A program made the position numbers and the translations under genes. A model generated the notes under the pieces. That model was not told where the DNA came from, did not search any database, and saw nothing but the letters and a program-made list of their open reading frames with translations. A DNA stretch of 64,000 nt from Lytechinus pictus (lineage: Eukaryota), in assembly GCF_037042905.1 (NCBI RefSeq), contig NC_087251.1, positions 24,182,001 to 24,246,000 of the forward strand. The letters run 5' to 3'. This document shows positions 29,839 through 64,000 of this stretch, one piece after another (position 1 is the stretch's first letter; every line of letters begins with the position of its first letter).

Positions 29839-30168
29839 TGTGTGTTGTTACAGAGCAATATGGTTGAGCACGTCTTTTTGCAGATATCTTTCCCTAGGGA
29901 AGGAGAGAGAACAACAAAAGTATATACTGTAATATTAAGGGAGACTTTCAAATATGACTAGATTCTTTAATACCCACCAGTCAAAAAAATTACTTTCATA
30001 TTGTAATTTACACCTTGATCAGAATATTGTAGGGGTATACCAATAGGGGGTAGGAGGTTACTCTGTTAGAAAAATATATGTTTTTTTTTCGTGAATCCCC
30101 TTTTTATTTTATATTTTCAATTGTTAGATTTGTTGGGAGGGATATTATGAGCATTTTTCAATGACCGT

Positions 30169-30947
30169 GGGTGGTATTCTGAGGTCATTTTATCTTTAAA
30201 ATATTCTATTTTATCTCTTAAAATGAAATTGGTATTCTGAGATGACATTTTATATCTCAGATAAAATTCAAATTTTATCTTGTGTATCTATAGATGATAA
30301 GCCTACGTAGATTTACCAATAGCATATTTTTTTTACCATTGCAACGTGGATGATGTGCTTGCGTCCATGTTAATTTGTAGAAGAAAAAAAAGTTAAAAGA
30401 AGGTAGCGGCTATTTTATCTCCGCGACGTTGATTTCATCAGTATTTCTAGGTGAACTCCAAATGTTGACATGAAAATGAAGAAAAATTATAAATTCATTG
30501 AGAATAACACCTTAACGTTATTCTTGTACAATCAGGAAATACTTAATAAGACTTTTCTTGACTAATATTGTCTTTGACATGATGCTTGAAAAGATGTGAT
30601 ATAGACTTAGAAAAAAAAATGAGAGTATTGTCATTTTTTTTTAAAGAAATCTCTGTAAAGACATGCAAGCATATGGTGCAAGCGTATTTGAAGTCAATAA
30701 CTTAACAATCTCACTCCTTTGCCACACCTCCTGGCGGAATGAATTTCCATTGGTTGAGTGAGATGAGAGAGCTATAAAAGCGTGTTACTCATTGGATATT
30801 GATTAAAAAATAGGTGTGTCTTACAGAGATAAAATTGTTCTCAGAAAACTAATTCAGAGAGATTTTAAGGGTATTTTATCTCAAGGATTTTAACCGAGAT
30901 AAAATATTTTATTTCATCTGAGATAAATGGATCTCAGAATACCACCC
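30169..30947. mobile_element. MITE (Harbinger-like)
   Basis: TIR gggtggtattctgag / ctcagaataccaccc with subterminal ttttatct/agataaaa repeats. Confidence 0.75.
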
Positions 30948-31968
30948 CACGCCATTTGATTGACTTTAAAAACAAATAAAGAAAAAAAATTGATGTATGA
31001 ATCCTTAATTTTGCAATGTTATTCTTACCTCCCTGCTATTACGCAAATACTGTCTCCTAATATCAAATAATATATTATTGGTAGAAAAATAAGTTTAGGG
31101 GTATACACAAGTAAATGTGTCCAAAATCACCCCCCCTTAAGAATAACCTACCCATCTCCTCATTTGCATGTCAACAAAGTTTACATGTACTACGAATGTA
31201 GGACCAACGAGTAAATTAAAATTCAAACTGCATCCTCCTACCCTATAATAGAGCTTGAAATACTTAGTATTTTGCCAGTGTTATGGTAGGCCTGCAACAA
31301 AATACTTGCATTATCCAAAGCATAAAAATAATGAAAATGTTTGCTTCAACTGTTCTAGCATGTGGATATTTTTAGCATCCAGATGAGATTCATGATATTT
31401 ATTGGCAAATGCAAATTTTTTAAATCTAGCACCGCTCATGATTTTGCCGCCCTCTATACGCGTCTGGTGGCTAGGCTACATAACAAAGAAGACAAGATGG
31501 CGACAATAACAGATTGTGAGTAAACGCTCACGCTCTTAATTATTTTTCAATATTGTTACACTTTTTTAATAAATACACTCACCATTAGTGCGTGCGGGGG
31601 GGTAAATATACTTGTAGCCCATTTACATAAGTTTGGGCTCAAAACCCTAAACCACTCATTTTATTGAACAAGGTTACGATAAAACGGGCCTAAACTAAAG
31701 TTTTGATTTTAACTAAGTTTAATCGGGGGAAATGGCATGCCGTCCCTGGCTCCATGGAGATTAATTTAATCTCTAGGAGCCTCCTGGCTACACTAGTGTG
31801 AGTGAGTCTAGATTAAAACTTTCAAGTTTTAAGATAAAAAATAATCAAAGCCAAAGGACAAAGGTCAAATTCAAAGCTGTGCAGAAATAGATTAAGTGTT
31901 AGTTTAGCTCTTAAATGCCAGGTGAAAAAAAAATCAGGTCATCTATTAAATCAATATTGGAGAGTAAA

Positions 31969-33260
31969 CAGTGGCGTACCGTGGGTCACGGCATTGGGGG
32001 GGCACCAGCAAAATTTCTTAGTCGCTTAGTGAGCGTGCGAAGTGGGCTCAGTTGCCAGGTATACTTACCTAATAGAGACATTTTAAGGACAGTGCCATTA
32101 AACGGATATGTATCTCACTGATCAAATAATGCGAGCGCGAAGCACGAGCTGAAAATTTTTGAAATCATAATAAGCATAAATAAGCAATAATTTTTGTAAT
32201 CATGATACGTACCTGTCTCGCTAAACAAACAATACGAGCGCAAAGCGCGAGTTGAAATTTTTGTATATATTGACCATAAACAGGGACATTTTAAGGACTA
32301 TATTTTAGGAATCAATTAAGAGTATACATATTTCACCATAGTCAAGTTCCAAGCGCTTGCTGATCTTGTTAGAATTACATCTAAACACATGAAGCACTTA
32401 TAGTAATTGTAATCATGATTAACATACGCATCTCACTAATCAAATATTGCGAGCACAAAGCGCGAGCTGAAAATTTAGGAAATTCAGACCTGAAGAGGGG
32501 TATTCTAAGGCTTGTTTGTTGGAATTCACTAAGACCATACGTATTTCAATAACCAAATGATGCGAGCGCGAGCTGAACATTTTCGATATTCAGATCAGAA
32601 AAAGGGATTTTAAGGACTGATTTTAGGAATTCATAAAGAGCAGACATATCTCACAAATCCACAAATGCGAATGTAAGCACTGACAGGAAATGTTTTATAT
32701 TAAGACCTTAAAATGGGGCATTCACTTTAAGTAGTCATGAAAAAGAATAATATGTCACTACATAAAACAATAACTCGAAGTGCGAGGAAATGTATTTGGG
32801 GCATTATCCTGGTTTAAGTCACAACTCCATTCACTGCCGTTCATTTCGTCAGCAGCGGTGACTTCTTTCATCTGCCATTGACTTTCTACACACAACGAGC
32901 GCACACACGAGAAGAGAGGTGACTTATTTCAGGATAAGGCCACATTTGGTGTAGGCTTATATTTACTTGAAAACAGGAGGTTATAGTACAACAGGATTAT
33001 ATATCTCGTTAAACAGACAATGCAAGAACCAAAAACAATGAAGACATAGGCCCTGAGCAAATTATGTTTCATAAAGTTATGAAAAAGGTGTTTCTTATGC
33101 AATATAACATAACTTAATTATAATAATGAACAATAATTTCTTCTTTCCCACTACATTGCTCTTCCTTTCTCCCTCTTTTTCTCCTTTTCCGGCCCCATTT
33201 TTTTTGCCAGCCAATGGGGGGGGGGGGCATGTGCCCCCCACCCCCGCAGTTACGCCACTG
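31969..33260. mobile_element. Non-autonomous hAT-like transposon (1292 bp)
   Basis: TIR CAGTGGCGTA / TACGCCACTG; exact 8-bp TSD AGAGTAAA at 31961-31968 and 33261-33268; internal ~110-120-bp degenerate repeats containing gcgagcgcgaagcgcgagctgaa. Confidence 0.9.
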
Positions 33261-33290
33261 AGAGTAAACCTGGATAAAATTAGCTAAAGT

Positions 33291-34442
33291 TAGTTCATGA
33301 AACTTGGGCATAAGGTTAATCAAGTATTACTGAACATCCTGCTCGAGTTTCAGGTCACGTGACCAAGGTCAAAGGTCATTTAGGGTCAATGAACTTAGGT
33401 CAAGTTGGGGGTATTTGTTGAATTACTATCATAACTTAAAAAATATATGGATCTAGTCCATGAAACTTGGACATAAGGTTAATCAAGTACCACTGAATAT
33501 CCTGTGCGAGTTTTAGGTCACACGACCATGGTCATTTAATGTCAATGAACTTTTGCCGTGTTGGGGGTATTTGTTAAATTACCATCCTAACTCTGAAAGT
33601 TTTATGGATCTAGTTCATAAAACTTGGACATAAGAGTAATCAAGTATCACTGAACATCCTGTACGAGTTTCAGGTCACATGACCATGGTCAAAGGTCATT
33701 AAAGGTCAATGAACTTTGGCCGTGTTGGGGGTATTTGTTGAATTACCATCCTAACTCTGAAAGTTTATGGATCTAGTTCATAAAACTTGGGATATAAGAG
33801 TAATCAAGCATCACTGAACATCCCCTGTGAGTTTCAGGTCACAAAACCAAGTCAAAGGTCAGTTAAGGTCAATAAACTTAGGCCATGTTGGGGTAATTGT
33901 TGAAGTGCCATCATAACTTTGAAAGTTTATGGATAGAGTGAATGAAATGTGGACATGGGTGTAGTTGACAGTCTTAAGTCTCTGTTCAAATGTCATTTAT
34001 GGTCAATGAACGTGGTATTATGTCATTATATGAATGATGTTTTTGTGAATGATTATTTTATAGTAGTTTTCAAAGTTAGCACTGCTGCTATATTAAATTG
34101 CGTAATGCAGGCGAGACTGCCAGAGGCGTTCCACTTGTTAAGTTATGATGTCATTTCAAAAACTTAACCTTCGATTAAGATTTTGAAAATAATTCTCCCA
34201 ACATGGTCTAAGTTCATTGACCCTAAATGACCTTTGACCTTGGTCATGTGACCTGAAACTCAGGCAGGATGTTTAGTAATACTTGATTGACCTTATGTCC
34301 AAGTTTCATGAACTAGGTCCATATACTTTCTAAGTTATGATGACATTTCAAAAACTTACCCTTAGGTTAAGATTTGATGTTGACGCCGCCGCCATCGGAA
34401 AAGCGGCGCCTATAGTCTCGCTCTGCTATGCAGGCGAGACAA
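33291..34442. mobile_element. Helentron-associated (HINE/DINE-1-like) element in two oppositely oriented pieces (33291-34139 plus; 34140-34442 minus)
   Basis: ~160-bp tandem monomers with ggtcaaaggtca cores; both termini match the intact copy at 61641-62492. Confidence 0.75.
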
Positions 34443-34444
34443 TA

Positions 34445-35262
34445 AAATGTGGAAACAGAAATTATGCACTTACCACGATTATATGGATGAAGGTCTATCA
34501 TGACACACAAATCCTGACATCGAGGCACAGACTGGAACCTCAAAAAAACAAAAAGTTCTGTCGCGATACCTCTCCTTCTTTCAAAATTCAAAACAAAATG
34601 GCCGATCGAGACCGAGGCTATATTTGGTTTTTTTGAGGTTCCAGTTATTAGCTCACTGCAACCATCCTGCCTGTGGGGAATCTACAGGTAGGACTATCGT
34701 ATGCCAATGCTATACAGAGCACACACTTTAAAAAATCTTTAAAATATCACTTTTGTGACCAAAATTACTAATTTCCATACAGTTGCAATTTATTTTTCAT
34801 TAGTAACTTGGGAATAATTTTTGTATTCACCAGAGCGCTCAAAACTTGAATTTTGGGCATATTTTTGTGTATGCCCTCTACTGGTGGAAAGTAATATGGC
34901 AAGAAAATTTTCATTTTTCAATCTCTATTTTTAATTAAGAAAAAAATAATTTAAAGAATCAAATTTACTTAAGAGCCAAGTTGTATGATGAATAGGTGTA
35001 ATGGAAACTGTCAGTGTAAAAAAATCAAGCATTTGTCCCAAAGAAAAAGAGAAAATAAGCCAAACATTGCCACCCTTAGCTTATTTTGCCACACATGGAG
35101 ATATAACAGAGAACCACTCATTCAATGAACAAGGTTATATCATAACCTTGTTCATTGAATGAGTGGTTCCAGCTCCAGTCTGTGCCTCGATGTCAGGATT
35201 TGTGTGTCACGATAGACCTTCATCCAAATAATCGTGGTAAGTGCATAATTTCTGTTTCCATA
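34445..35262. mobile_element. Diverged, interrupted relative of the palindromic element at 39516-40129
   Basis: 34452-34620 aligns with the left arm and 35173-35257 with the right arm (cctgacatcgaggcacagactgga; cacttaccacgatt). Confidence 0.75.
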
Positions 35263-35338
35263 TTCTATTAAGATTACTATTGAGACCCCAATCTTACCCC
35301 AGTCCCGTGTCTCCTTCGTTTTGCACGGTCGACTCCTG

Positions 35339-38300
35339 GGGCCCGTTTCTCAACACATGGACAAGTTAGTCATATCTTTATTCACCAACCACGGAGTTAG
35401 TTCCAATCTTACTAAACCTGTTTCTCGAAAGGCTTCCTAACTAGAATACCTTGATATCGATACTATCGGTAAAAAGAGCAGACGAGACGTAGCCTTAGTC
35501 ACAAAATAGCATAATTTTCAAAAAGAAAAATTATGACAAAATTGCAAATATTATGATGAATTGGGAAATTAATCTTTTCAAAATAATAGCACATGTGAAT
35601 TATGCATCATACATACTTAGACCATGAAGACTGGAGCATTCAATTGCAGAGAAAATTAAATTATGAATAATTCATTTCATGACTAAAAAATCACTTGTGG
35701 ACGTTTAGATGGGTACCCCTGGGAGACCCAATTTTACGAAAGTAAACCATAACGGTTTTCTTTGTAAAATGATAATTATACAGACTTTTATGATTCCAAA
35801 CGTCATCAAAATATAGTTTAACTAGACATTTTTAATCATTGATACCAAAAGATACGATATTGGACAAATTATATGCATAAATTAGATATAGAATTCATCC
35901 AACTGTTAATAGGGGTCTGAAAACATCAATACAAGTTCAGTTATGGATGGCATGACGTGGTAGAATCTTTATCAATTAAATCATTTTACTATTTCAAAAT
36001 GAATGGTTTTGTAGCGTTTACCAACACCTGAGTCGAATCGATTTTAAAATCGGTGTTCGATCGATGTCATCGAACACCGGTGCAGATTTTGCAAAATCAG
36101 CGCATCGAAAAAAAAAAGGAAAAAAATGTCGGCCGGCCGATTCGTTCAATGGTTCACACAATCAATTATCAAAATATCAGTTATGTCCAACTTGACTATT
36201 ACTTACTTGATTTCTATTGCCCCCAAAATGAAACCGATTGTGTAATTATGATGCTTATTCACCATTAATTTGCAGTTTATTTCGATCATAGTTCGAGTCT
36301 TACTCGTCTGCTCGTGCCGAGATAATTTATGCACGATGAATTCATGAATGGAAGTCATGGCCATCGATCGTGCATGCGCAGTAGGATGGGGGATCGGGTG
36401 TCCGGACAGTTTATATTTTTGAAGCCTTCTTTTTTGTCTTTGGATTACACTATAAATATGAATTCAATACTTGTAATCATCTTCTATTTTGTTCTTTATA
36501 ATATTTCCTAACATTTTGTACTAAAAATTGATGAAACTTCGCTTGTAATTTTTTCCAAATGACTTTCTAAAATTGATCGTCCGGACATACAACCTGTCCG
36601 GTCACACAACAACTGGGTATACTGTTCTTTAATCAAACCAGAAAATGGCCGGAAATTGACGCGATCAACGTAAAATAAATCTTGCTTTCATGAACAATAT
36701 TAATATCATGACCACAGAACATTATTTAATCATAATATTTAACTATAATTTGCATATGATAATCATTAATATGAATTTAGAGCTTGATGTGAAACGTTTG
36801 TATTTCGTTTCAATTTTCAATGGCGGACATCTCATGACGATCGACTTGAGTCGAGTGAGTGCACTTGTCTAAAAAAAAATAATTATCACGTCAGGATTGA
36901 TTCTCAAACATTGTCTACATGCAAAAACTCTTTTCAAAATCGTAATATCACCATATAATAACATTTTACATGACAAAACAGAGAAAATTGCGTTTTATAT
37001 TTTTTTCCCATCAATTTGAAGCTAGTTTGTACCCAACTTTGGGCTCTGATTTCATGAATGGAAAATATGTCATATGTCATCGAATTAACACGCATGCGCA
37101 TTATTCTTCTTTTCTCGGAGCTCGGAGACGTCCAGAGATGGAATAACAATAGAAATAATGCCAGTATTTATTCTTCCATATGAACATAACATACTTTGCT
37201 GACATTGTCAATATTCTTAGTATGACCATAAAATCTTGTTAAATCGTAATAATTTATATGAATCTAGGGCTCGATTCGAAACATTTGTATTTATTTCGAT
37301 CGCATGCTCAATTGTGTCTAAAAAAATGGGTTGTCAGTATCAGGATTAATTCTCGAACATCGTCATAACTCATATTCCACAATCTTTCCTCACAATCGTT
37401 ATATCAGCATTGAATAGCAATTGAAATGACCATCCAGAGAAAATTACGTATTTATTCTCATAAATTTATTTGGAACTCATTTTGGATCCATCTACACAAT
37501 CTCAAGCAAGTTACAGCGCTCTCCGTTGGTTGCACTTGTTTGCTGGCGCTGACAAGCACGCCTGTCATTTCGGGAGAGTGAGTGTAGACTACGGGGCTGC
37601 GGACGGGACTGGTGAATGCGAGTCTGGACTGCGAATGCTAGTCGACCGAAAATCATTCGGATCGACTCTGCGTGATTCATGTCTTTATTATTGTTTCATT
37701 TTAAACTTATATGTTGTCATCTGCAAATATCATTGTTGAAGATATTTTGGGAAGAATTCTGAATTGGTCCCCCGCCTTTTTTTGTGTTTTGTGGTCATGG
37801 AAAATACAAACGAACTTTGCTCTGTCATCACATACCGTCAGTGCGTATAATGCATACATTCATTTTCCCCGCCTTCAATATTCGATGCATCGATCGAATT
37901 AAAGCTGTCGAACACCGGTTTTCAAAATAATCGATATGACTCAGGCTTAGTTTTTATAGTTTCTTTGTATTACAATTATCATTGAATGCATTAGCCCCCT
38001 TGTTTTGTGATGTAATTTCAACCACTATGATTGATTACGTAAGATTATAATTTTAAAATTTCTAGGCACTTTCGCATGTCATAGTCTACCCACGTACACC
38101 CATGGGTTCATATTGTCTCGCGTGCGAAGGAATATCAGTCATATGCACGCGACACACACGACACATCCAAAATATACTGGGCTTTTGCCAACATAAAATA
38201 TCACGCATAATCTGGTATTTCACATTCTGCTATGACACTTACCGAATCATTTAGATCCCTCCGTGACTTCTCCTTGAAGTTTCTTTTAAAAAATATGTAT

Positions 38301-39293
38301 ATTTTCTTGATCTTTAGTGAAGATTTCACGGAGATAAAAATTGGTCAGCGTGGATATCAATTTTCGCCTGAAGAGGGCGTGCGATTTATATTCATATCAA
38401 AGACACGACAAGGGAAAGACAAGGCACCTACACTATTTTACACGCAAATCGACGCAAGGCATTACGCGAAGTCCGTGAAGTGTCCAATCTTTTCATCGTA
38501 TAGACTTTGGTATAGTGCCTTATTATTTGACATTCGTTAAAGCTTGTACTGCTGGTTTCGTTCCAGGCATGTGTATTTTTTTCATTTTTTTTTTTATTAG
38601 TCATCGTTTTAAATTAATTGCAAAAAAGTGTTATCATCGCCAATAGTAATCTTGAATTATGTTTTTGAAGGTATTTCATTTATTGGTGCCCATAATTAGT
38701 AAAGTCATTATAAGAATTGCGCATTCAAAGAATTTAGACACAGTTATAAAATTACCGAGGAGCTGAATCAAGGTTGTGAAATTTATTAGCGCCACCAACG
38801 GGCTTCCTTGTATTTCCTTAGAAGAGACAAACGAAGTCACTTGCTAGGCCGAGGTAAGCGAAATTTGCTCTTTTTGTAATGAAATTACTTCATAATCATA
38901 TATAGGCCCTATATGTATAATTTTTTGATGTATTGCTACTTACCGGAAAGAGCCCCGGTGCGTAGCGAGAAGGAGTTTCGGCAAATATTACTTCAGCACT
39001 GAAGCGATGTTTGCCGACTACTTCGAAATCCAGTGTCAAACACGGTCCCTTGTACAAGGTTAGTACCGGTATATACACTAACCTCGTATTAGTGTGAGTG
39101 ACCCACGTAATGCCAAGTGCTACGTCATTAAGAAAGAAGTTAAGACAGGTTCGGAGGTGTCATAAATATTTAGTGAGGTTGTTGTACCCGATCTTGGTAA
39201 AGAGGGCTTCGTGAAACGATTAGTGGACAAGTAGCTCACTATCTCCGATTTAGTCAAGAAGTTAGACTTATGACGGTGTTGAGAAACGGGCCC
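35339..39293. mobile_element. ~3.95-kb non-autonomous PIF/Harbinger-like element
   Basis: TIR GGGCCCGTTTCTCAACAC / GTGTTGAGAAACGGGCCC with CTG duplication at 35336-35338 and 39294-39296; no transposase ORF inside. Confidence 0.8.
36027..37945. mobile_element. Nested TIR element inside the Harbinger-like element
   Basis: Imperfect TIR cctgagtc..atcgatt..ggtgttcga / tcgaacaccgg..aatcgat..gactcagg; internal ~200-bp direct duplication (about 36865-37050 vs 37315-37490). Confidence 0.6.
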
Positions 39294-39515
39294 CTGGAGT
39301 CACCCAAGGGTTCATTACATGCCGCCGCGCACAGAAAAATCAAGCCATAGAAGTCGTGTGTTGTGGACCCAAGAAGTGAGATCCCAGCACGCGCGACCCA
39401 CTACTTAGAAATCCACTGCCAAACGTGGTTCGTGGTGCGAGGTTAGTATACGGGCTACTAACCTCGCAATACGTGTGAGAGCCTGGCTGGGCTCCGGCCC
39501 CTTCTTGGGTTACGC

Positions 39516-40129
39516 TAACCCAGAGAGCTCCAGCCCGCGTAGCGGGCTGGAGCCCAGACGCTCAGTGTGCAAACGGGCATTCAGGTGAGAGTACCGTGAA
39601 GTTTGGTCAAAATAATTTTGATAATACATAATTAAAACAGAAATTAAGCACTTACCACGATTGTATGGATGATAGTCTAACGAGTGGCAGTTTCCTGACA
39701 TCGAGGCACAGACTGGAACCTCAAAAAACGATCAGTTCTGTCGCGGTGGCTCTCCTTCTTTCAAAATTCATAGCAAAATGGCCGTTCGAGAGGGTGTAGG
39801 GCGCATGCGCGAATTTGACAAAGTCTATATGCGCTAGTGCTATACTAGCCTCGGTCTCGATCGGCCATTTTGTGTTGAATTCTGAAAGAGGAGAGCTACC
39901 GCGACAGAACTGATCGTTTTTTGAGGTTCCAGTCTGTGCCTCGATGTCAGGAAACTGCCACTCGTTAGACTATCATCCATACAATCGTGGTAAGTGCTTA
40001 ATTTCTGTTTTAATTATGTATTATCAAAATTATTTTGACCAAACTTCACGGTACTCTCACCTGAATGCCCGTTTGCACACTGAGCGTCTGGGCTCCAGCC
40101 CGCTACGCGGGCTGGAGCTCTCTGGGTTA
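39516..40129. mobile_element. 614-bp palindromic Mutator/MULE-like element with ~275-bp TIRs
   Basis: TAACCCAGAGAG / CTCTCTGGGTTA termini; arms essentially identical for over 200 bp; exact 9-bp duplication GGGTTACGC at 39507-39515 and 40130-40138. Confidence 0.9.
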
Positions 40130-47264: not shown

Positions 47265-47446
47265 CAGGGGCCGCGGAACGGTTTTCAAAGTGGGGGGGCT
47301 GAGCCAAAAGTGGGGGGGGGGGGGGCTGACCATGCTTAAAATCACAATCATAGGGTAATTTTTACGTTTTTGTACACGGTTTTGGAAAAAAGTGGGGGGC
47401 TGAAGCCCCCCAGCCCCCCCCCCCCCCCCCGGTTCCGCGGCCCCTG
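47265..47446. mobile_element. Short hAT-like MITE; partial copy at about 60360-60422
   Basis: TIR CAGGGGCCGCGGAAC / GTTCCGCGGCCCCTG; no clean 8-bp TSD. Confidence 0.65.
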
Positions 47447-49439: not shown

Positions 49440-49980
49440 ACCATGGACATATATGATTTAACCAAGCTTAATGCTGAAATATTTATCACAAACGGATGTA
49501 AAGTGAGAAAGTTACGCTAAATTTTACAAAGCAGTTAATCCTGGTCGGTATGTAAATGAGGGAACCAGTATACGTCGCCCACTCACTATTTCTGTATGTT
49601 ATTATAATAAAAATAAAATATTCTAATTTTCTCTTCATTACAATGTGACACGACGATTGATTCCTCACAGATTGTGGCATTGTCATTGCTGTATAACCAT
49701 CGTGATTTGATAAAGAGTTTCCCCAATGTCAAATCTGCAAAACAAATAAATATTGTATACATGTCATTCAATAAAATACAACCTAAATGAATTCTTCATT
49801 TGCCTATCACTGCGTTGTGAATAATAATTATTATAACTGTGCTGTGAAATGAAAATAAATACAATTCTAAGATGTCATAATTTTCTTATTACTAATTCGA
49901 TTTTGATGAAATCTTCAGCATTATTATTTTTCTCTCTTTTTATTAATTTCTTCTTTTGGTGGGGGTGAATTTCCCCTTTA
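49440..49980. mobile_element. Degenerate Kolobok-like family A copy (another degenerate relative at about 11887-12350)
   Basis: Shares cctggtcggtatg.aaatgagg, cactcactat and gattttgatgaaat with 10622-11234; ends cctttaa. Confidence 0.6.
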
Positions 49981-52058: not shown

Positions 52059-52966
52059 CTCGCGTGCCCCTCGCCCCCTCGCTCGTGCCAACGACAAAAC
52101 TACATTGTCGTAGAAGTCACTCAAACAATAGTCAGCTACTGTAAGGGCAGTGCCATTACACTTTGTTTATAAAACCAGCCCTCGCGTGCCTATTCTTAAT
52201 TTTATACCCTCCATTCTAGCATTAATATGCAGATGAGAAGTTAACTATCTCGGGAACTTATGCAGATGGTACCCAGCTCTATAGGTCTTAACTTTACGCT
52301 TGTTTGAATGGTTTCATTGACAAAAGTAGCCTTCCATCATTTATTTATTTGGGCTTCCAATGGTTATTGAATAAGACCAAAGAGCACAGATCGATAGTCG
52401 TTTTTAAGTCGCGTGCCCGGAGTAGATCCATTTTTTTTATTGACATGTTCTTTTGTCATGTAGATGTATTGATGCCTCCGGATGAGGATTATGACAGACG
52501 CTGACGAGAAGACGCCCCCTCATCAGCTCCTTTCTTGCCCTGTTGCGCAAACACCTCGTTCTATACGTCCTCAACCGACAACCATCATCAGGTTTTTCGT
52601 AATTACCAGTTAATCCACCATGTCCAGAGGACAATTGCCTCCAGCTGGACAAAGCAGGGGTCTTCGCGTGCCGTCGCGTGCCTAAGTCACTCCTTAAAAC
52701 AGCTTAATTAAATATTCATAAAGGGACGCGTGGGGATCGACTTCTGAACTGCCCATCCAAGAAGCTACTGAATTCCTACAGCTCCTGCAAGACCATATAC
52801 TGAGGATCTAGAGTTTAACGAGTTACTAAGTTACTAAGTCGCGTGCCGTGCCAACACTCTTGATCCCTTGCTGATCTTTAGAACGGGAGATGTTCTTTAT
52901 CTCTGTAATAATTTGTACCCCAGAGTGCAAAGGTATTTGTTCTTATCAGCAGACTTTATGCACCTG
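52059..52966. promoter_or_regulatory. Candidate cis-regulatory module: cluster of Hairy/Hes-type GGCACGCGA sites plus E-boxes
   Basis: Six TCGCGTGCC in 52059-52847, one CTCGTGCC, and E-boxes CAGATG x2, CAGCTG and CACCTG, all in unique non-tandem sequence. Confidence 0.7.
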
Positions 52967-53111
52967 TCGCACGCTTGTTGCTCCAATAGAGGTAAAATTG
53001 ACATCTTAAGATGAAAACGACGATAACCCGAATTGAAAATATAGGCAGTTGTAAGATGGTATACAGCAAAGTCATCCGCCTAAGATCGAAACCCAGTAGG
53101 GTTGATTTTTA

Positions 53112-53293
53112 GGAAATGTTATGGATTAGTGGATAAGTTCCCGGACTTTGAACCACTGTGTCCAGAGTTCGAATCCCACCGCAGTGTTGCCCTTTGCCGA
53201 GACGTTAATCATGTTAATCCACAGGTTAATAATAATAATAATCGTATGGCGCTGAGAAACATGAAGCAATATGCAAATGTTGCATATTATTAA
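53112..53293 (+). mobile_element. Degenerate tRNA-derived SINE
   Basis: A-box-like tggattagtgg, B-box gagttcgaatcc and an AT-rich tail ending tattatt; no intact cloverleaf. Confidence 0.65.
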
Positions 53294-53479
53294 GAAAATG
53301 AAAAAAAAATGAAAATCCCTAATATGTTGTTGGAAATGAAATCTGAAGCGGAAATAGAGCGAAAATTATTTTTGTCCAGTTGATCGTGGGCCCGGTAGCC
53401 ACTGTGCAGTGCAAGATCGATGTAGCACAATCTCTTGGATTTGTGAATGCCAAACATGGTAGCAGGCTACGGCAGCAAC

Positions 53480-54120
53480 TTTTTTTTTTCACTTTTTTTA
53501 AAGTTTTTATTGGGTTTTCATGATTTTATGTTTTTGTTTGCCATACCGGATGGTAAACACTCACCACATCGACCTCGGCTACCCGAAAACACTCTGTATG
53601 TATGATATAAGCATGATGAATATAAACACAGTACTGAAACCACTAACGAGAATGGGTGTATCGACAAAATAAAATATAAAAAATCTGACATTTAGAATGA
53701 AAATAAACTAGATATAGTCATAAGGGAAGTTTAATTACTTTGAAAATAAGCTTTCTTAGGTTTAGGATAGCACAAATCATTTTGGACGCAATGCCACCAT
53801 TTAGTTACATCCATCATCCATTTTGTCATTTGATTGAGAGCTCCAGTGTGAAACCAATATACATCCTACACATCAGCATTGGTTTGCTGTTACTGTATGA
53901 ATTCAATGAACATTCAAGTCGTCCCCGTATTGTAAACGGTCATAACTCTATGGTTATAGCCCCCATTCACATTATTGAATCAATTGCACAAGCCCAACTA
54001 CCATGCAACCATCTAAGGTGTTGTCCTAAGGGTTCGTAGCATGATTTATCTCATTTTCTCAAAATGGATGAAAACCCGGCTAACACGACAACATCTGGAC
54101 AAAAGATGAATCTATATGCT
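53480..54120 (-). mobile_element. Possible 5'-truncated LINE (L1/Tx1-like) remnant
   Basis: On the minus strand AATAAA is followed by an A-rich tail at about 53480-53511, with degenerate coding-like sequence upstream. Family assignment is weak. Confidence 0.35.
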
Positions 54121-54631
54121 TGCGTTTGATTAATTTCATTCTAGTCGCCACGAGGACATTATATTTGGGTTTATCTCATTTATTTCCATTACCAAAAGCA
54201 GAATGATAGATAGCCTTATGTTTTATTATCCTCTTTGTTATAATTTTACAATGAGCACGCGTTTCATTTTCTTGATGCACTAAAAATGGAGCATGGAAAT
54301 AACGAAGATTGATCGGTTGGAACTTCTGACACCCTCTCCAGTCTCTAGAACTAACAATAAACCCACACTAATCTCGAGTTCGTTCCATAGATTGGGTTGA
54401 CTATATAGCTAGATTCATGTATTACGTGTTTAAATCATAATAACACGGCAAAGCAAACAGTTATAACCGACTAGTTGATACGAACAGTTTACAAACTAGT
54501 TTACAAGGTTCCCTCTTTAGTTTTGTAAAGGCTCGGATAATAAGCAATTTTCGGTCAATTTATCATCTGTGAGTTAAAGAGAGAAGATGCGGATATTGGC
54601 AGGATAAAAACTCGGTAGCTCTGTCATGTCT

Positions 54632-54777
54632 GTAGCATCTTCTGCAGTCATGGTGTACAGTAGCATCTTCTGCAGTCATGGTGTACAGTAGCATCTTTTG
54701 CAGTCATGATGGTGTACAGTAGCATCTTCTGCAGTCATGATGGTGTACAGTAGCATCTTCTGCAGTCATGGTGTACA
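54632..54777 (+). repeat. Minisatellite, 5 copies of a 28/31-bp unit GTAGCATCTTCTGCAGTCAT(GAT)GGTGTACA
   Basis: Directly visible head-to-tail copies without spacers. Confidence 0.95.
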
Positions 54778-56011
54778 GTGGCTGTCGGTAAGAATGAGAC
54801 GTGTAGGATAATAATACCCCGTATTGCGGTACTATCTGCTTTTTTTTTTAATTCATAATTGCTACCACTGGCAGACAGATGAGGGACTTGAGGGCCATAT
54901 CGACCCCGAAATTTTCATGACTAAGGGAAAAAGGGATAAAAAGAAAGAAAAGGTAAGGGAAAATGTGATACATGATTATCACAAATTAGATTTTTGTATA
55001 AAAAGTAAAAGGTTATTTGGATACTAAACATTAATAGTTTTTCTCTTTTCTATTAAAAATATCTTGATATCTGGACCAATTTGAATTGATGCACGTAATC
55101 GTAATGTGTGCAATCTAGAACGTGGATTAAACAATCAAAATTTAACCACCCAGCGCGATGAATAATCATAATTATAATACCCATAAATCAAGCTTTGCCA
55201 ACATGCAAAAAAGTTTGTGGGTAGATCCAAAGCAATAAATCTCACTCCCTTGTCACCTACCGGAAGAGTAACACATTTTGCGGTATATAATCTGAATACC
55301 AGTAATTAAAATATGATTATTCACACACCAGAGTGTGTGTCTCTTCTAAATAAAGTCAGTGACATTCTTATTTCATCTAATTGTAAGTCAGTAACAGTAC
55401 TATCATCTTCTACAACTCTATACGCTTGTCTGTATTGCGATGCGTAGTTCAACATAATGAATTAATGTTTCCACTAAATCATAAAAAATGAAAAGTATGG
55501 AGTCGATTTCAACTTAAAATTTTACTAAGCAGGAAGCAGTAATATGAACTTAATTCTATAATTGTCCATGTGCAAGATCAATCTTCTCCAAATAAAAAAT
55601 AATAATCTGAATACCATCAGTTATTAAGATCACAGAATGAAATCATAAATCACGGTTACCCTTTACATTCATTTCATACATGTATGATAATGACCTTTGC
55701 ACGAACATTATTAAAGGCACACCTGTTCACCTGCTTCGGTGTTTAAAAAGAAAAACCCATTATACATTGTCGATTCACTTCATAAACCGACAAAATATCG
55801 TCGCATTATTTTATTACCAGGGTCGTCGCGTGGCGGCGTCGTGTATTGATATTGCGATATGGTATCTAGTTTTACAAGGCCTCAAGCAAAGTTTGTCTGT
55901 TTAATGCCCGTGTTTGCCATAAGTAAATTTCAGTGTGTCATGTAAGATAAATGTTTAGTTTCAGTGTAATATAGGACAAGATACTTCAAAATTTATCATA
56001 TTCATTTATCA

Positions 56012-56038
56012 TTACTACTACTACTACTACTACTACTT

Positions 56039-56084
<46 letters not shown>

Positions 56085-56089
56085 CACTA

Positions 56090-56120
<31 letters not shown>

Positions 56121-56204
56121 CACTACTACCACTACTACTACTACTACTACTAATGCTACTACCTCTATACCACAACAACTACTACTACTACTACTACTAA
56201 TACT

Positions 56205-56237
<33 letters not shown>

Positions 56238-56316
56238 GCTGCTACTATTACTACTATACCACTACCTTTACTACTACTACTACTACTACTACTAGTAGTA
56301 CTATACCACCACCACC

Positions 56317-56357
<41 letters not shown>

Positions 56358-56398
56358 CACTACTACTACTACTACTACTGCTACTACTACTACTATAT

Positions 56399-56467
<69 letters not shown>

Positions 56468-56483
56468 CACTACTACTACTACT
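56012..56483 (+). repeat. Compound (ACT)n/(ACC)n microsatellite
   Basis: Directly visible. Confidence 0.98.
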
Positions 56484-57016
56484 CGACACCATCATTGATT
56501 ATGCCTACGATACTCGATTGATTTGTATAGAATTGACAGATTTCTGTGGATCATTAATAAGACCATTAAGTCAGATAAGAGCTATCATCATTCATTTATA
56601 ATTTCATTTTTCTGCAAATTCATCGACTGCATTTTACCCAGTTACTTTGAAAAACATATGGTAAAGCAATGTCAAAGTTCAAAGTTACATAACTTAAGAT
56701 GATAATTCACATATGTTTTGCATTATATTCGTAAATAATTAATTAAGTAGTTCTCCTTCTAATAACGAGTTAAAGTCATACGTTCCTGAACACAGCTACA
56801 GCGACCGAGCAAATAACTTTTGACCCTTGACCCCCGGTCCCGTCTATTGTCTCCATGAAAATATTCAGCAAACAAAAGGCGCACGCTCGCGCACCTGCCC
56901 GCTGAACTAATAGCACATAAAGGGGCTTATGTTAAGTACTCAGGACTCGTGCCAAAATCGACCCTATGTTTACTCGACCAAGTCCAAACGCACAATTTTA
57001 TCGTTCTTCTACTTAA

Positions 57017-57619
57017 AGGACAAGTCCACCCCAACAAAAACTTGATCCGAATAAAAAGAGAAAAATTCAACAAGCATAACACTGAAAATTTCATCAAAAT
57101 CGGATGTAAAATAAGAAAGTTATGACATTTTAAAGTTTCGCTTCATTTCACAAAAGAGTTATATGCACATCCCGGTCAGTATGCAAATGAGGGAACTGAT
57201 GACATCACTCACTCACTATTTCTTTTGTATTTTAGTATATGAATTATGAAATATTTTGATTTTCTCGTCATTGTCATGTGAAATGAAGTTTTATTCCTCC
57301 CTGAATACGTGGAATTCCATTATTTTAACATTTTGTGGTTTAGGCAAGGAGATCCTAATTGTCAAATTCGTAAAAATTTAGATATTGTATAATTCAAACA
57401 ATAAAAAACAAAAGAAATAGTGAGTGAGTGACATCATCGACTCTCTAATTTGGATGTAACTGGCTCGTTCATATAACTATTTTGTTAAAAATAAGCGAAA
57501 ATTTGAAATGTCATAACTTTCTTATTTTGCATCCGATTTTGATGAAATTTTCAGCATTGTGCTTGTCTGATTTTTCTCTATTGATTCAAATCAACATTTT
57601 GTTGGGGTGGACTTGACCT
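57017..57619. mobile_element. Kolobok-like non-autonomous DNA transposon, family A copy 2
   Basis: TTAA at 57013-57016 and 57620-57623; long TIRs; close to 10622-11234. Confidence 0.88.
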
Positions 57620-57959
57620 TTAAAGAATTGAACTTGAAATCCGGCAGTTAAACCATAAGAACGCTTCTAAAGGGGCTACAGTCATGCTGTACGTTTTGTT
57701 TTTGAATGGCTCTCTCTTTCGTCAAATTTAAACCTACATGTTTGTTTGTTTATCTGAACGACAAAACACGATATAAACTAGAATGTAAAGAAATAGAAAC
57801 ATACTGAAACAGGTATTTTGTTTTAAGAGGAAAAAATGGCATAGGCATGATTTAAAAAGTTTATTGACAAACTTATTAATGCTCATTCAGTTCTATTTTT
57901 CAGTTCCTAATTTTTTTCAACAGGTTTATCAAAGCTGCGTAGCAACGATATTGATGAAA

Positions 57960-58180
57960 ATAATATTAATGGTATTATCTATAATGATGATGATAATAAT
58001 AATAATAACAATAATGATAGTAATAATAGCAATGATGGTAATATTAATCATCATCATTAGTAATAATAACAAGACTCTGAGAAGAAGAATAATAATAATA
58101 ATAATTATAAGATTATAAGTAACAACAATAATAACGATGATATTGATAATGTTGTTGACAGGGGTCATTATGATAATTAC
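57960..58180 (+). repeat. Degenerate (AAT)n microsatellite
   Basis: Directly visible. Confidence 0.9.
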
Positions 58181-61100
58181 AATACAAATGTTGAAAAATC
58201 ACAATTACATGATTTTCTGCTATAGGCTAGATCGACGCATGCGCAAACATTGCTTGGTAAAATATCTAATTTTCTCCTCTAATAGGAACTTCACCACATC
58301 AGTTCATAAATGAGTAACACATTATTGCGTATATTTATTGATTCACGGGGTCTAAATGCAATTTTATTGTGGTTAGAATTTAATACTTCCTCACTTCACT
58401 ACCCATCCATGAAAATTGTTTGTTTTCTAAGCTTTATTGTGGGAAAGAAAAACAAATATGAATCTAACAAAACATATAACTGCAAATCAAACAAAATGTT
58501 CCCCAATCTCACACCACAGAACAATAACTCTGAAATGGTCCGTCGAATTTTTTTTCCGGGAGTGAATGAAGCAACAAATGCCATATGCACGGACATTTCG
58601 AACTCACTTTTGAAGAAGAAAAAAAGGCTTACATCCTGTGTGCATGAGTTTGATGCGATTTTCAGCATTTTGATTAAATAAATTTTTAAAAACGGTTCAA
58701 AGTCCAACAGTAAAATGACATAGAAGACTAGTATACACACTGATATATGCCTATAACAAGCAAAGACTATATATAAGTGGACAATGTTTATCATCGATAT
58801 TAAACAAAATAACTCAATCTTGAATTGACCAGTTCGGTATTTATTACCTCATGGGCAATTTTGGTCAAATGACCTTTCATTTTTTTACATTCATATAATG
58901 ATAGGCAGATTTCAAATCAAGATATTATGCAAGCATGCCTTACATAGCAGGATGCATAAATTGTATAGACTAGCAGAACAGCACACCAATGAACACTCTA
59001 TGAAAGTACTTGTCACGTGTAGTTGCTGTAACGATGTACTTGGCCAACTGTGAAATACCAGTCGTTAGTGGACGCATTTTTTTTTTCTCGATCTAATGAA
59101 AAACAAAATTCAAAAGAATATAATGAATAATCAAGACATCAACATTGGTGCTTATCTCATTAGATATTAAACCACTATGTCACTTTTTCGTCCGAATGAC
59201 CTTCTTCTGATCATGCGCAGAATGGAACTCCGAACTGGCTTATTGCTTTTATTCATTCGCTCAACTTTGTTTACAAGGTACAGAGGGTTTCGACCTGTAT
59301 GAGATTCACTACTTTTTACAGCAGCGTTCGACCACAACCTCGCTGATGGGGGAAGTCATAATGAAACATAAACATAAAGACACCTCAGAAGATTACAAGA
59401 AAATATGGAAGATATAATAAGTTTGGTACACATTGCCATATTATCACTTTAAAGGATTAACTCTGAGCTCGGCAAGTGTCCGAAATGCTACAAGCTAAAA
59501 CAAGCACCAAAAACGTGCGTTAACGCAAGAAGAATGCTGGGATAAAAGAAAAATGTCCCGCGCACTCGCACTTGTCCCCTTCAAAACACGAAGATCACGT
59601 TGCTGCAAGAACGCACAAACACCTCTGATTATTCTTTAAAGAGGAACGCCGCCAAGTTTTCAAAATAACGCTCCTTGCTCTTAAACCAGAAATGTATCCT
59701 CACAAGAAAAAGACAGAAAAGGGGAGAACTGTCACGCGCCCGGGAGGTATGAAAGATGAATAAAGAAAAGTGAGAAGAAAAGTGAGTCCAAGTTCGTGTA
59801 ATATGAAGGGTTTGTCGATCGCCGCCCATCAAACTCAGTGCCCTGTTAACCAACCTGCTGTGTAGCTATAAAAGAACGCTCTTATTCCGTCTAATTGTGC
59901 TCAGCAGGAATCGTAATAATCATTTCCCATGCCACTATAAATATAACCGATGGGAATTATGAAAAGAAATAATAAATACATCACGGAACGAATCACTCAA
60001 GTTTTTTTTCACCCTTCAATGTACCGCAAGCAAGACTCCAAATAAACATGATCAGCGACTGAACCACATTATCGTGATTACGTCACCTATGTGATGGTGA
60101 TTAAGAATTATAATGAGACTGAATTGACCACTGATGGTATAATAATTTAGTAAACTTGTGGCCAAATCGTATATAAATGAATAAAAACAAATCTCACCAC
60201 CTTTGTTACGTTAAAATAATGTTCATCGAATAAATGAGTGTTTATAGGCCTTTCGTGGATGGCCCCGCTCATTCCAATTGCTGTTATTTACAATGGACTT
60301 ACATTTATTCTGATTTACTAATTAACAAACGTAAATCGTGATAAAGTTGGTCTTCGTTCAAAAAAGTGGGGGGGGGGGGGGGGGGGGGGGCTTCACCACA
60401 GCCCCCGGTTCCGCGGCCTCTGACTTTGACCGTATTATATATCTTCAGAGAAATTATGGTAGGATCTCTTGCAGGAGTCCAGGTCCAGATGTTGGGTCAC
60501 AAAGTTGGTGTTCTTTACTCACATGTATAAGCAAGCATCGACTTTAGAAAGAAATTTTAAAAATCACCCTAATTAACTATTTTACAGGCTAGACACGTGT
60601 CCGTGTACCTGTGTTTTAATTTATTACCAAGGGTTTGCCTGTCATTTGACTTGTCTCAGGTCATGAGAAAAGCTATATCCGCAAAGGAAATCAAGGTGTG
60701 TTGTAAGAAGGAGACCGCATGTCGCCGGATGTTCATTGGAGGTGTCGACTGCGGCAGCCCTTTTAGATCGGCTGCAGGCTACCACCACTAATTGCTCTCC
60801 AACCATGACCCAAACCCGTATGGAAGAAACTTAAAGAGAAAACACACCTAATATACAAAATTGTCAGAAGAGACCTGGGGTTGAAATTCGATTAAATATG
60901 AGACTTTCAAATACTGATTGCTCATCTCATAAAAAACAGCCCTCGAAAAATAAATCGACTCCCGGACCTTGTAACACCCTTAAGGATTCCACCTCTATAC
61001 ACACACTATAACATTCGAAAAGTTTAAAAACTCCGAACGAAAATGTATTTGAATAAGTTAATTATTAAATATTAGACTTTGTCAACTAAGTTAAATTACA

Positions 61101-61640
61101 TATTGCTTTGTAATAATCAAATATATGATATTGGACTACATACTATATCTTAAACACATAAATTGACAAAATAATTGTGCTGAGAGTCGACTTCGTGGCA
61201 GTTAACATGGTTAACTCAATGTCTCATTTTGTGACAACTAACATGACCGATGAAAATGGAACTTTAAATTTAAAGATAAAAGTTTTGATCGCAAACGTGA
61301 CCCCAACCAATCAGTATGTAATCGTTTTCATGGTTACAAAAAGAATGGGCTATATTCAATCACTTTTGCCGGATCCTTTCCAAGTTTGGTTGTCTTGTAA
61401 GGGTATCGTTCTACTATACCCCGCTATGAACAGATGAAATCGTGTTATTGCTAGGTTTCGACACCCGCCGGTTCACCTTATGATATATTTACTTGATACA
61501 ATTAAAACTTACTTGATTGGAACCCAAAGGCATGTATACTATTTGTGTAAATTAATCTTTTGACAATATTCAAAGAGTGAAATCGATTTGTGATGAATTA
61601 TGATATCCTCGATGTGAAGGGTAAAGGGGCAGTTAATTTA

Positions 61641-62492
61641 AACAAGTGGAACGCCTCTGGCAGTCTCGCCTGCATCACGCGATTCGATATAGCAACAGTG
61701 CTGACTTTCAAAACAGCTCATGAATAATAATTCACATAAGAAAACATTCATGATAATAAAATACTATGTCCATTGACCCAAAAAGACCTTTGACCATGAT
61801 CATGTGACCTAAGATGTGTACAAAACAGTCATTCACATTTGATTACCATTGCGTCTATGCTTCATGGCCTAGATCCATAAACTTTCTAAGTTATGATGCC
61901 AATTCAACAAATACCCCAACACGGTCAAAATTCATTGACCTTGCATGACCTTTGATCTTGGTCATGTGACCCGAAATGCGCACATGATATTCAGGGATAC
62001 AAGGCTGCTCATATGTCCAAGTTTCATGAACTAGATCCATACACTTTTAAGTTAAGATAACAATTCCACAAATGCCCTCAACATTACCAAAGTTTATTGA
62101 CCCTTAATGACATTTGACCTTGGTCATGTGACCTGAAACTCGCACAGGATCTTCAGGGATAATTGATTGCTCTCACGTCTAAGTTTAATGAACTAGATCC
62201 ATAAACATTCAAAGTTATGATGGTAATTCAACAAATACTCCCAACATGGCCAAAGTTCATTGACCCTAAATGACCTTTGACCTTGGCCATGTGACCTAGA
62301 ACTCATGCAAGATGTTCAGTTATACTTGATTAATCTTATGTCCAAATTTCATGAACTAGGTCTATATACTTTTTGAGTTATGGTGTCATTTCAAACACTT
62401 AACCTTCGGTTAAGATTTGATGTTGACGCCGCCGCCGCCGGCGTCGGAAAAGCGGCGCATATAGTCTCGCTCTGCTGTGCAGGCGAGACAAA
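61641..62492 (-). mobile_element. Intact Helentron-associated (HINE/DINE-1-like) element with central ~163-bp tandem array
   Basis: Read on the minus strand: T-run start, subTIR GTCTCGCCTGCA with nearby inverted GCGAGAC, (GGC)n microsatellite, about 4 monomers, 3' subTIR TGCAGGCGAGAC, end CTTGTT; no TSD. Confidence 0.8.
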
Positions 62493-64000
62493 AACGACTG
62501 TACAATACCTTGTTTCTTGTTTCGTTTCTGTCCTAGATTTCGAAGTTTTGTGGTTTGTTTTTGTACTGAATCTTGAATCGTGCTATCGACCTCCAAGCTA
62601 TAGGCCCAACATTGCATAGAGCTTGGGCGTCAACGGCTATGAAGAGAGGGGTATTAGCGAGGGAACGAAGCGAGCGACGCTCACGATCGAAGGGGAGGGG
62701 TGCAACACCCCATGGTAGCAATGGCGTAATGACCCCAAAATATTGAGGGGCCAAACATGGTGTATGGATAGAAAAGAAATAAAAGTCGAGAGCAAGTGAA
62801 GCGAGCGAGCAAACGCTTTGACCTTCGTGAAACGAATCGCTAATTTTGTGACAGAATTTACAGTATTCAAAAATAATATATGATACCTCTTTCCTGTCAG
62901 TTTATTTACTTTTTTTTCATATATTCCTCGGTGGTTTTGGGGGGTCATGTCCGCCCAAATCCCCCAACCAACCTAAAGGCAGTGCACAGTAAGTTGTTGT
63001 TGCATTTCTCATTCAAAATAATGCAATTTTATGCATATTTACATGGTCTTTTGTCTGAAAAGTGGGGTCAACCGTTAGCGACATGAGCGAGGGGGGGTGA
63101 GATCCTTTTGCATTTCTTGCTTGGAGTAATGCAATTTGGTGCTTTTTTCTACTTCAAATGCTTCTTTTTTTTTCTTTCAAGATACAAAGTAACTGACAGG
63201 ATACTTCTGATTAAAAAAATGAGGGACAAATGATATGGTGCCCCATTCCCCCGCCTGTTGACGCCCAGGCATGCAAAGAGCTATAAACAATGGTATAATG
63301 GTATACTCTGGGTAGCGTCATTCAAGGCAACGAGTGAGAAAAGAGAGTATGTTTCACCTGTTGACATCACATAGTGGACATTTCTAGTTTTAAATACGGA
63401 GTCCTGTTTTTTTTTATTTGGATAAAGCGAAGCGAGCAAGCAAGGAAAAATATCTTTCAATTCTGTCACAGACTTTGCCTTGAAATGAAGTAAAACAACC
63501 AGAAAGTAAATGAAATTTGATGACAATTATTGTTATGTTAAATAATCTAAATGATCTAGCCCCCCCCCCCCCCGCCCCCAAAAAAATCCTTTCAAACTTT
63601 CTTGGGCTGCTGACCAAAAACTGTACCCCGGTGGATTAGTTGTAGGAAAAGCTTTGACTTTCTATTTCATTTTTATTTTTAATTTAAATATCACCGATTC
63701 CTATCCTATACTGGCTTTTGTATGTAGGAAAATACAAGTAATTCATCACTCACAGAAGCCTTTGTCTTTAAAATCGTCAACCTTAATATTTATTTCCAAT
63801 CTAGGTTTACTTTGTTTCTATATATTTCGTATTATTTTATCTATTTATGTAATTTTGTTAGTGTATCATATTTGCTTCATTTAATTCTAATTTATTTATT
63901 TTGCATATGTATACTGGGCTCTTTTGTTAAGCAGGGCTTTTGGCACTGAAAAGACTACCCTGTTGTTGTTGTGTTTTGTTAATATCGATCGCCATTCCGG

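What the first reader, a model, noticed from the sequence alone, without database searches (positions are those of the whole stretch)
29894..64000. Predicted ancient FAM120B-Delta head-to-head linkage: the gene-free region may be the Delta upstream landscape
Seen: the gene is FAM120B-type and transcribed leftwards, and the 34 kb upstream has no credible host-gene CDS. All eight TCGCGTGCC copies I found lie right of 43.8 kb, and a CSL/Su(H)-type site TTCCCACG lies at 46170-46177. Established: human and mouse FAM120B sit divergently next to DLL1, and Delta genes are Hes targets. Inference: a + strand Delta gene begins beyond 64000, which would make this a deuterostome-wide microsynteny block. 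No Delta exon is visible in the window, so this is a prediction only.
Basis: inference. Interest (0 to 1): 0.75.

Follow-up and report, generated by a model that had tools for sequence, protein, structure and literature searches.

The report
Ancient FAM120B–Delta block with Hes-site cluster
In this sea urchin genome the Notch-ligand gene Delta starts 19 kb past the window, facing away from FAM120B, in a gene neighbourhood already catalogued as bilaterian-old, and the gap between the two genes holds a very dense cluster of Hairy/Hes-type motifs that is likely an undescribed distant control element of Delta.

Summary
The prediction holds. A + strand Delta gene (98% identical to Lytechinus Delta, not Serrate) starts 19.3 kb past the window, divergent from FAM120B. 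Corrections: RNA reads show that 29,894–40,297 is FAM120B intron 1, so the true gap is about 42 kb, and the CSL site is at chance level. The order here is TIMM50–FAM120B–Delta–CHAC1–INO80…FEZ. It is older than deuterostomes and already catalogued. Block 3020 of Robert et al. 2022 (supplement only, FAM120 rows unnamed) has FAM120-type genes beside Delta in a centipede and a brachiopod. This scan also noted Delta–ChaC(–INO80) before on other DNA. Vertebrate paralogues each keep one neighbour (DLL1–FAM120B, DLL3–TIMM50, DLL4–CHAC1–INO80); my searches did not find that partition in print. The eight TCGCGTGCC copies are real. Six lie in 788 bp of single-copy DNA, and 6 of the genome's 227 GGCACGCGAC Hairy-consensus sites lie in this gap (0.012 expected). 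The cluster is neither of the two published Delta modules I could map (R6, R11). It is likely a Hes-repressed distal Delta enhancer, but binding, activity and target are untested.

The parts
17392..29893 (-). FAM120B (CCPG) coding exons: 29893-28498 (ATG at 29838), 28099-27800, 26304-26092, 17463-17392 (stop). TIMM50 lies left of the window on + (about -19,216 to -5,865 in continued numbering), convergent with it
   Evidence: tblastn of the 630-aa Lytechinus protein; homologue names; stop codon; RNA reads; TIMM50
29894..40297 (-). FAM120B intron 1 (10.4 kb), repeat-rich, CpG o/e 0.88
   Evidence: spliced reads and contig, exact match of the loose end at 40298, GT donor and AG acceptor; CpG; repeats
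40298..40389 (-). FAM120B non-coding upstream exon (minimum extent; start site not mapped)
   Evidence: 92-letter loose end of contig X15, of which 30 letters were placed
40390..64000 (.). In-window part of the approximately 42-kb FAM120B-Delta gap; no Pfam-detectable host CDS; CpG o/e 0.79 against 0.28-0.37 in neighbouring housekeeping gene bodies. Beyond the window, in continued numbering: LINE 64,379-67,527; R6-like proximal module about 81,300-83,200; Delta (+) 83,253-97,150; R11 counterpart 111,142-114,063; CHAC1-like (+) 153,213-159,098; INO80 (-) at least 252,673-328,135; FEZ (-) 414,333-476,794
   Evidence: gap; Delta; R6 and R11; CHAC1; INO80; FEZ:
43822..43830 (+). TCGCGTGCC (GGCACGCGAC on - strand), isolated Hes class C-type site
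46170..46177 (+). TTCCCACG, CSL-type motif at chance frequency
48382..48390 (+). TCGCGTGCC (GGCACGCGAC on - strand), isolated Hes class C-type site
52060..52847 (.). Single-copy module with six TCGCGTGCC plus one CTCGTGCC; six Sox-type motifs lie in 51931-52654; candidate distal Delta enhancer/silencer

Best explanation
The region is the gap between divergently transcribed FAM120B and Delta in a bilaterian-old gene block, and its 52-kb motif cluster is likely a distal Delta enhancer that Hes/Hairy repressors would switch off. Shown: gene identities, order and orientation in this genome, FAM120B intron 1, the motif cluster and its enrichment. Taken from papers: the same neighbours beside Delta in protostomes and beside single DLL paralogues in vertebrates; ggCACGCG(A/C)C as the Hairy/Hes1 site. 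Inferred: Hes dimers bind the clustered sites and recruit Groucho in Notch-receiving cells; Sox-type or proneural activators drive the module elsewhere; the module contacts the Delta TATA promoter 30.6 kb away rather than the FAM120B promoter about 12 kb away; elements of this kind on both sides of Delta help keep the bystander genes attached; after the vertebrate genome duplications DLL1, DLL3 and DLL4 each kept a different neighbour.
For: Delta, not Serrate: 98% identity over 97% of a 272-aa query to L. variegatus delta-like 1; no JAG1 domain; a separate Jagged-like gene lies 15 Mb away. Order TIMM50(+) FAM120B(-) Delta(+) CHAC1(+) INO80(-) FEZ(-). Block 3020 of PMC8851819 has FAM120-type, Dl, ChaC, INO80-group, B52, FEZ in Strigamia and DLL, FAM120-type, TIMM50 with consecutive ids in Lingula. 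L. variegatus accessions run CHAC1 ...816/817, Delta ...818, FAM120B ...821/822 on one contig; D. antillarum has all three on a 2.03-Mb contig and Delta plus FAM120B on a 562-kb one. Vertebrates: DLL1, FAM120B consecutive at 6q27; DLL3-TIMM50 in turtle, coelacanth, Anolis; mouse Dll4, Chac1, Ino80 within 48 kb. Motif: 5 of 8 copies are the full Hairy consensus GGCACGCGAC; 6 of 227 genome-wide copies lie in the 42-kb gap, 0.012 expected. The module is single-copy and flanks of copies are unrelated (mean identity 0.23). The densest 2 kb for GGCACGNG in 414 kb is this module (7 sites); the next separate cluster is the Delta proximal region (5 sites), which matches R6, a module that responded to HesC knockdown.
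Against: No binding, chromatin, reporter or contact data; no second species' DNA to test conservation of the module. The nearer promoter is FAM120B's. All 8 copies share one strand (P=0.008), unexpected for homodimer sites and open to local duplication or a heterodimer. No CSL enrichment. Conserved order alone does not show cis-regulatory constraint. In block 3020 only 2 of 10 species list both a FAM120-group and a Delta-group gene, the S. purpuratus rows have no Delta, the orthogroup also holds FAM120A and no strands are given. Human head-to-head orientation is recalled, not checked.
Confidence: 0.62

Rival explanations
1. The gene order is ancient but kept passively, through slow rearrangement and Delta's large flanks. 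The cluster may still control Delta, but no regulatory tie holds FAM120B there.
For: All eight sites lie outside the FAM120B transcription unit. Many listed species keep only parts of the block, and vertebrate DLL3 and DLL4 do without FAM120B.
Against: The same order FAM120-Delta-ChaC-INO80-FEZ in a centipede and this sea urchin, while SUPT5H, a vertebrate neighbour of TIMM50, lies on another contig here. CpG-rich DNA extends into FAM120B intron 1, though that intron is repeat-rich.
Confidence: 0.3
2. The cluster is functional but is read by another factor or acts on another gene, for example an AhR/ARNT-type bHLH-PAS heterodimer (TNGCGTG, motif recalled) or control of FAM120B.
For: TCGCGTG fits the recalled xenobiotic response element; strand bias 8 of 8; the FAM120B 5' end is about 12 kb away against 30.6 kb for Delta.
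Against: The invariant GG flank and the A-C end in 5 of 8 copies match the Hairy consensus ggCACGCG(A/C)C and the Hes1 ChIP motif GGCACGCGCC. The same site class clusters at the Delta proximal module.
Confidence: 0.15
3. The cluster is a neutral by-product of local duplication or a decayed repeat.
For: Two copies are tandem (52664, 52674), one is followed by a partial repeat (52839), and all share a strand.
Against: Single-copy in the genome search (that search skips very common words), no tandem array there, unrelated flanks, two more copies 4 and 8 kb away, about 500-fold enrichment.
Confidence: 0.08

Closest known systems
Microsyntenic block 3020, 'Bilateria novel' (Robert et al. 2022, PMC8851819, supplementary file 4)
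   Same: Same gene families: Delta, FAM120-type, TIMM50, ChaC, INO80, FEZ; S. purpuratus rows list TIMM50, FAM120-type, CHAC1 and INO80 on one scaffold.
   Different: The catalogue is automatic, leaves the FAM120 rows of this block unnamed, gives no strand, has no Delta row for the sea urchin in the part held, and the main text has 0 hits for delta, notch or 3020. Here order, orientation and distances are resolved.
Vertebrate DLL1-FAM120B (6q27), DLL3-TIMM50, DLL4-CHAC1-INO80 (15q15) neighbourhoods
   Same: Each pair recurs around the single sea urchin Delta.
   Different: Here all neighbours surround one Delta gene. Vertebrate strand orientations are recalled, not checked.
S. purpuratus delta cis-regulatory modules R6 (proximal, HesC-responsive) and R11 (PMC3339872)
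   Same: R6's counterpart carries the same class of GGCACGNG sites.
   Different: R6 maps to about 81.3-83.2 kb and R11 to 111.1-114.1 kb; the 52-kb cluster is a third place, about 30 kb upstream. Whether it is one of the other R regions of the 2004 and 2008 papers could not be checked.
Genomic regulatory blocks (developmental gene plus bystander genes; Irimia et al. 2012, PMC3514665)
   Same: A developmental gene with large gene-poor flanks, bordered by housekeeping genes in conserved order (concept recalled).
   Different: No enhancer inside a bystander gene is shown here. The paper's main text has 0 hits for these genes; its supplements were not readable.

Membership tests
Delta (DSL ligand) | MNNL and DSL domains followed by EGF repeats, TM and short tail | tested here: met
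Delta (DSL ligand) | No Jagged-type cysteine-rich region near the membrane; short EGF array | tested here: met
   No PF23575 in the 98%-identical protein, present in hemichordate Jagged; 9 EGF-type repeats by pattern; criterion from PMC1965462
Delta (DSL ligand) | Orthology to experimentally studied echinoid Delta | tested here: met
   98% L. variegatus, 86% Paracentrotus, 75% Eucidaris Delta; no tree built
Serrate/Jagged | Long EGF array plus cysteine-rich region | tested here: not met
   These features fit the other DSL gene at C7:39.27-39.29 Mb
FAM120B (CCPG) | Closer to FAM120B than the genome's other FAM120 gene | tested here: met
   34% identity, 126 bits to human FAM120B against 25%, 69 bits for the C3 paralogue; names; no tree built
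Block 3020 (bilaterian Delta microsynteny) | Three or more of the block's orthologues with at most five intervening genes | tested here: met
   TIMM50, FAM120B, Delta, CHAC1, INO80 with no intervening host gene detected in the ORFs scanned; FEZ 86 kb past the INO80 DBINO exons; SRSF not searched
Block 3020 (bilaterian Delta microsynteny) | Head-to-head orientation of FAM120B and Delta in other species | not testable with these tools
   The catalogue and papers read give adjacency only
Hes/Hairy-regulated enhancer | Class C sites ggCACGCG(A/C)C clustered above chance | tested here: met
Hes/Hairy-regulated enhancer | Hes binding and Hes-dependent repression of a target | not testable with these tools
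   No ChIP, reporter or knockdown data for this element
Direct Notch/CSL target region | Enriched or paired CSL sites | tested here: not met
   Chance-level counts; 0 in the module
Genomic regulatory block | Target-gene enhancers inside bystander genes | tested here: inconclusive
   All 8 sites are intergenic; FAM120B intron 1 holds one CTCGTGCC at 36311 and is CpG-rich but repeat-rich

The most novel reading that the evidence does not exclude
The 52-kb module is an unreported distal Hes-repressed Delta enhancer, with the densest Hairy-consensus cluster among the genome matches I could see. It marks the regulatory landscape that has tied FAM120B head-to-head to Delta since the bilaterian ancestor, and vertebrate DLL1, DLL3 and DLL4 each inherited one side of that landscape with one bystander gene.
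Probability: 0.3. Interest if true: 0.7.

Novelty: new member of a known kind. Interest (0 to 1): 0.45.

Why it matters
[quoted passage not shown] A distal cluster of near-perfect Hairy sites outside the two mapped modules is a ready reporter and CRISPR target for asking how Hes repression reaches Delta. The intact block also gives the pre-duplication arrangement of the three vertebrate DLL loci, a synteny argument that the divergent DLL3 derives from the same ancestral Delta. The linkage itself is already catalogued, which caps the surprise.

Tried and rejected
RNA laid on 24001-44000 was dominated by repeats and showed no FAM120B joint among the rows printed; a narrow lay solved it. No RNA was laid on 44-64 kb, so non-coding transcripts there are untested. 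The run search listed no holder on record as RNA; this is no evidence on expression. Rejected: a CSL role; a CpG-based guess that FAM120B starts at 36-38 kb; Serrate identity. The representative search and cluster look-up gave FAM120B relatives from other phyla but no matching Delta accessions, so starfish, hemichordate and amphioxus adjacency stays untested. The supplements of PMC4729200 had 0 hits for six gene names. Smith and Davidson 2008 and Revilla-i-Domingo 2007 were not held. Nine weaker DSL matches on C3 and C5 were not examined. Look-ups of earlier findings near this place and for the Hes cluster returned nothing.
Full report
Setting. The window is G000:C7:24,182,001-24,246,000 of an 811.7-Mb genome. 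The nearest named proteins are from Lytechinus at 98-99% identity, so this is an echinoid. Coordinates beyond 64,000 or below 1 continue the window numbering into the fetched flanks.

The left gene. The 452-codon frame at 29838-28483 finds 59 proteins, nearly all named constitutive coactivator of PPAR-gamma, that is FAM120B. A 630-aa Lytechinus protein maps to four exons on the - strand. Its first 180 residues match human FAM120B at 34% and 126 bits, against 25% and 69 bits for the other FAM120 gene on C3. All 29 reads laid from run X21 have the first mate on + and stop at 29893. Three of them and one contig of X15 continue with letters that match 40298-40327 exactly, followed by a GT donor. 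The 5' exon reaches at least about 40389, and a further upstream exon is not excluded.

The predicted gene. The DSL family matches 11 places in the genome, the second best on the + strand at 87,986; the best MNNL match is at 83,587. A 272-aa piece of the large EGF/TM exon is 98% identical to L. variegatus delta-like 1, 86% to Paracentrotus and 75% to Eucidaris Delta. Nine exon-sized pieces of that protein map at 96-100% from 83,253 to 95,110. One more EGF exon fell below the filter but is visible. The protein has no JAG1 domain, and a Jagged-like gene lies 15 Mb away. Delta thus starts 19.3 kb past the window and about 42 kb from the FAM120B 5' exon. A TATA-like box lies near 82,636. Of 117 ORFs of 70 aa or more between 29,894 and Delta, 2 hit Pfam, both in a LINE just outside the window.

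The block. Left of FAM120B lies TIMM50 on + (NIF match; best solved match Tim50 at 5.9e-13 against 4e-7 for the next family). Right of Delta lie a CHAC1-like gene on + at 153,213-159,098, INO80 on - over at least 252,673-328,135 and FEZ on - at 414,333-476,794. Between CHAC1 and the INO80 helicase I scanned 48 ORFs chosen from the 38 and 140 candidates; 1 hit Pfam, an INO80 exon. As a control, SUPT5H, a neighbour of vertebrate TIMM50, is on C6. Accession numbers support the order in L. variegatus (816/817, 818, 821/822; 819-820 unseen) and linkage in D. antillarum, on contigs of 2.03 Mb and 562 kb. The L. pictus rows may come from the same assembly as the window, so I do not count them as independent.

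What is in print. I found it in PMC8851819, supplementary file 4 (cut when stored): block 3020, 54 rows, 10 species. Strigamia has FAM120-type SMAR003069-70, Dl SMAR003071, ChaC, an INO80-group gene, B52 and FEZ. Lingula has DLL g9083, FAM120-type g9084-85 and TIMM50 g9086-87. Only these 2 of 10 species list both FAM120 and Delta groups. The orthogroup also holds FAM120A, so the B assignment rests on the PPAR annotation. The main text has 0 hits for delta, notch or 3020. For vertebrates I saw passages only: DLL1, FAM120B consecutive at 6q27 (PMC3924830); CHP2-DLL3-TIMM50-SUPT5H in turtle, coelacanth and Anolis (PMC4524481); mouse Dll4, Chac1, Ino80 coordinates (PMC3435402); human 15q15 (PMC5325341); Chac1 as a Dll4 neighbour (PMC3874025). 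The human head-to-head orientation is recalled. Searches (listings only; 15 of 413 listed in 77) showed no paper on the three-way partition. Most subscription papers are outside the library, and the supplements of PMC3514665 may list these pairs (main text 0 hits; supplements unreadable).

The motif cluster. All eight TCGCGTGCC are at the stated places on +; six lie within 52060-52847. Markov models of order 1-4 expect 0.03-0.13 copies in 34 kb. The weakest P, 1.7e-12, stays near 2e-7 after allowing for all 131,072 nine-mers. Five of the eight read GGCACGCGAC on -, the Hairy class C consensus ggCACGCG(A/C)C (PMC449821, passages); the Hes1 ChIP motif is GGCACGCGCC (10.1101/336305, passages). 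That 10-mer occurs 227 times in the genome, and 6 copies lie in the 42-kb gap where 0.012 are expected. Among the 100 places listed, no other locus has more than 2 within 30 kb (read by eye; 127 not listed). The module is single-copy and the copies' flanks are unrelated. Sox-type words are 6 against 1.4 expected (2 of 300 shuffles; one of 8 patterns tried). Against: all copies share a strand (P=0.008), two are tandem, and the CSL site is chance-level.

Relation to known modules. PMC3339872 (passages; supplement 2, cells cut at about 400 bases) reports that the S. purpuratus module delta R6 responded to HesC knockdown. An inner 24-mer of R6 matches exactly at 81,567 and R11 primers match at 111,142 and 114,042; the two R6 primers and one inner R11 string found no match within 4 mismatches, and another matched only elsewhere at 4 mismatches. 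The proximal region holds 5 GGCACGNG sites in 2 kb, second to the 52-kb module's 7, in 414 kb scanned; the Serrate locus never exceeds 1. The 52-kb cluster is thus neither R6 nor R11. The original delta papers were not held, so prior description under another name is not excluded. PMC10322840 (passages) gave background on the Pmar1-HesC gate, and PMC8527612 only reference lines.

Mechanism and verdict. CpG o/e is 0.79-0.88 from FAM120B intron 1 to CHAC1 and 0.28-0.37 in the flanking housekeeping gene bodies. This fits an unmethylated regulatory domain around Delta, which is an inference. The likeliest reading is a distal Delta enhancer under Hes repression inside an old gene block. Gene order and motif enrichment are shown; binding, target and the cause of the conserved order are inferred. 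Interest 0.45.

Noticed in passing
G000:C7:24157519-24158376 (L024:5519-6376), - strand: Divergent chaperonin-family exon head-to-head with TIMM50. It looks like MKKS/BBS6 (recalled); human MKKS lies near JAG1 (recalled).
   Followed up: partly
G000:C7:39.27-39.29 Mb and 39.795-39.799 Mb: The Serrate-like gene and the genome's second ChaC gene lie about 0.5 Mb apart on the same contig as Delta-CHAC1, hinting at an old DSL-ChaC duplication.
   Followed up: no
extended coordinates 95107-97150 (L014-L015): The Delta tail ATEV is split by an intron; the last Val and stop appear to sit in their own exon at 97,145.
   Followed up: partly
L047:5273-6868, - strand (C7:24401273-24402868): A 532-codon Ser/Pro-rich open frame with repeated KSPV motifs and no Pfam hit; possibly the last INO80 exon.
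   Followed up: partly
window 52227 and 52260: ATGCAGATG twice, 33 bp apart, inside the module (picked by eye; 0 of 300 shuffles); an E-box overlapping an octamer-like word.
   Followed up: partly
window 33291-33934 and 61861-62394: Two arrays of a 163-bp tandem unit in opposite orientation; the first attracts many RNA reads from repeats.
   Followed up: no
G000:C3:33.28-33.55 Mb, 41.66-41.71 Mb, 47.03 Mb; C5:53.41 Mb: Nine further DSL-domain matches, mostly clustered, with at most one weak MNNL match nearby.
   Followed up: no
L025:1814-2281 and 5635-6093: Two tandem DoxX-like membrane-protein ORFs.
   Followed up: no
G000:C7:24125649-24131367: LTR-retroelement-type ORFs (gag-, RT- and integrase-like, judged by eye).
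   Followed up: no
window 40460-40520: Three CGGATAA words just beyond the FAM120B upstream exon, in the likely promoter.
   Followed up: no
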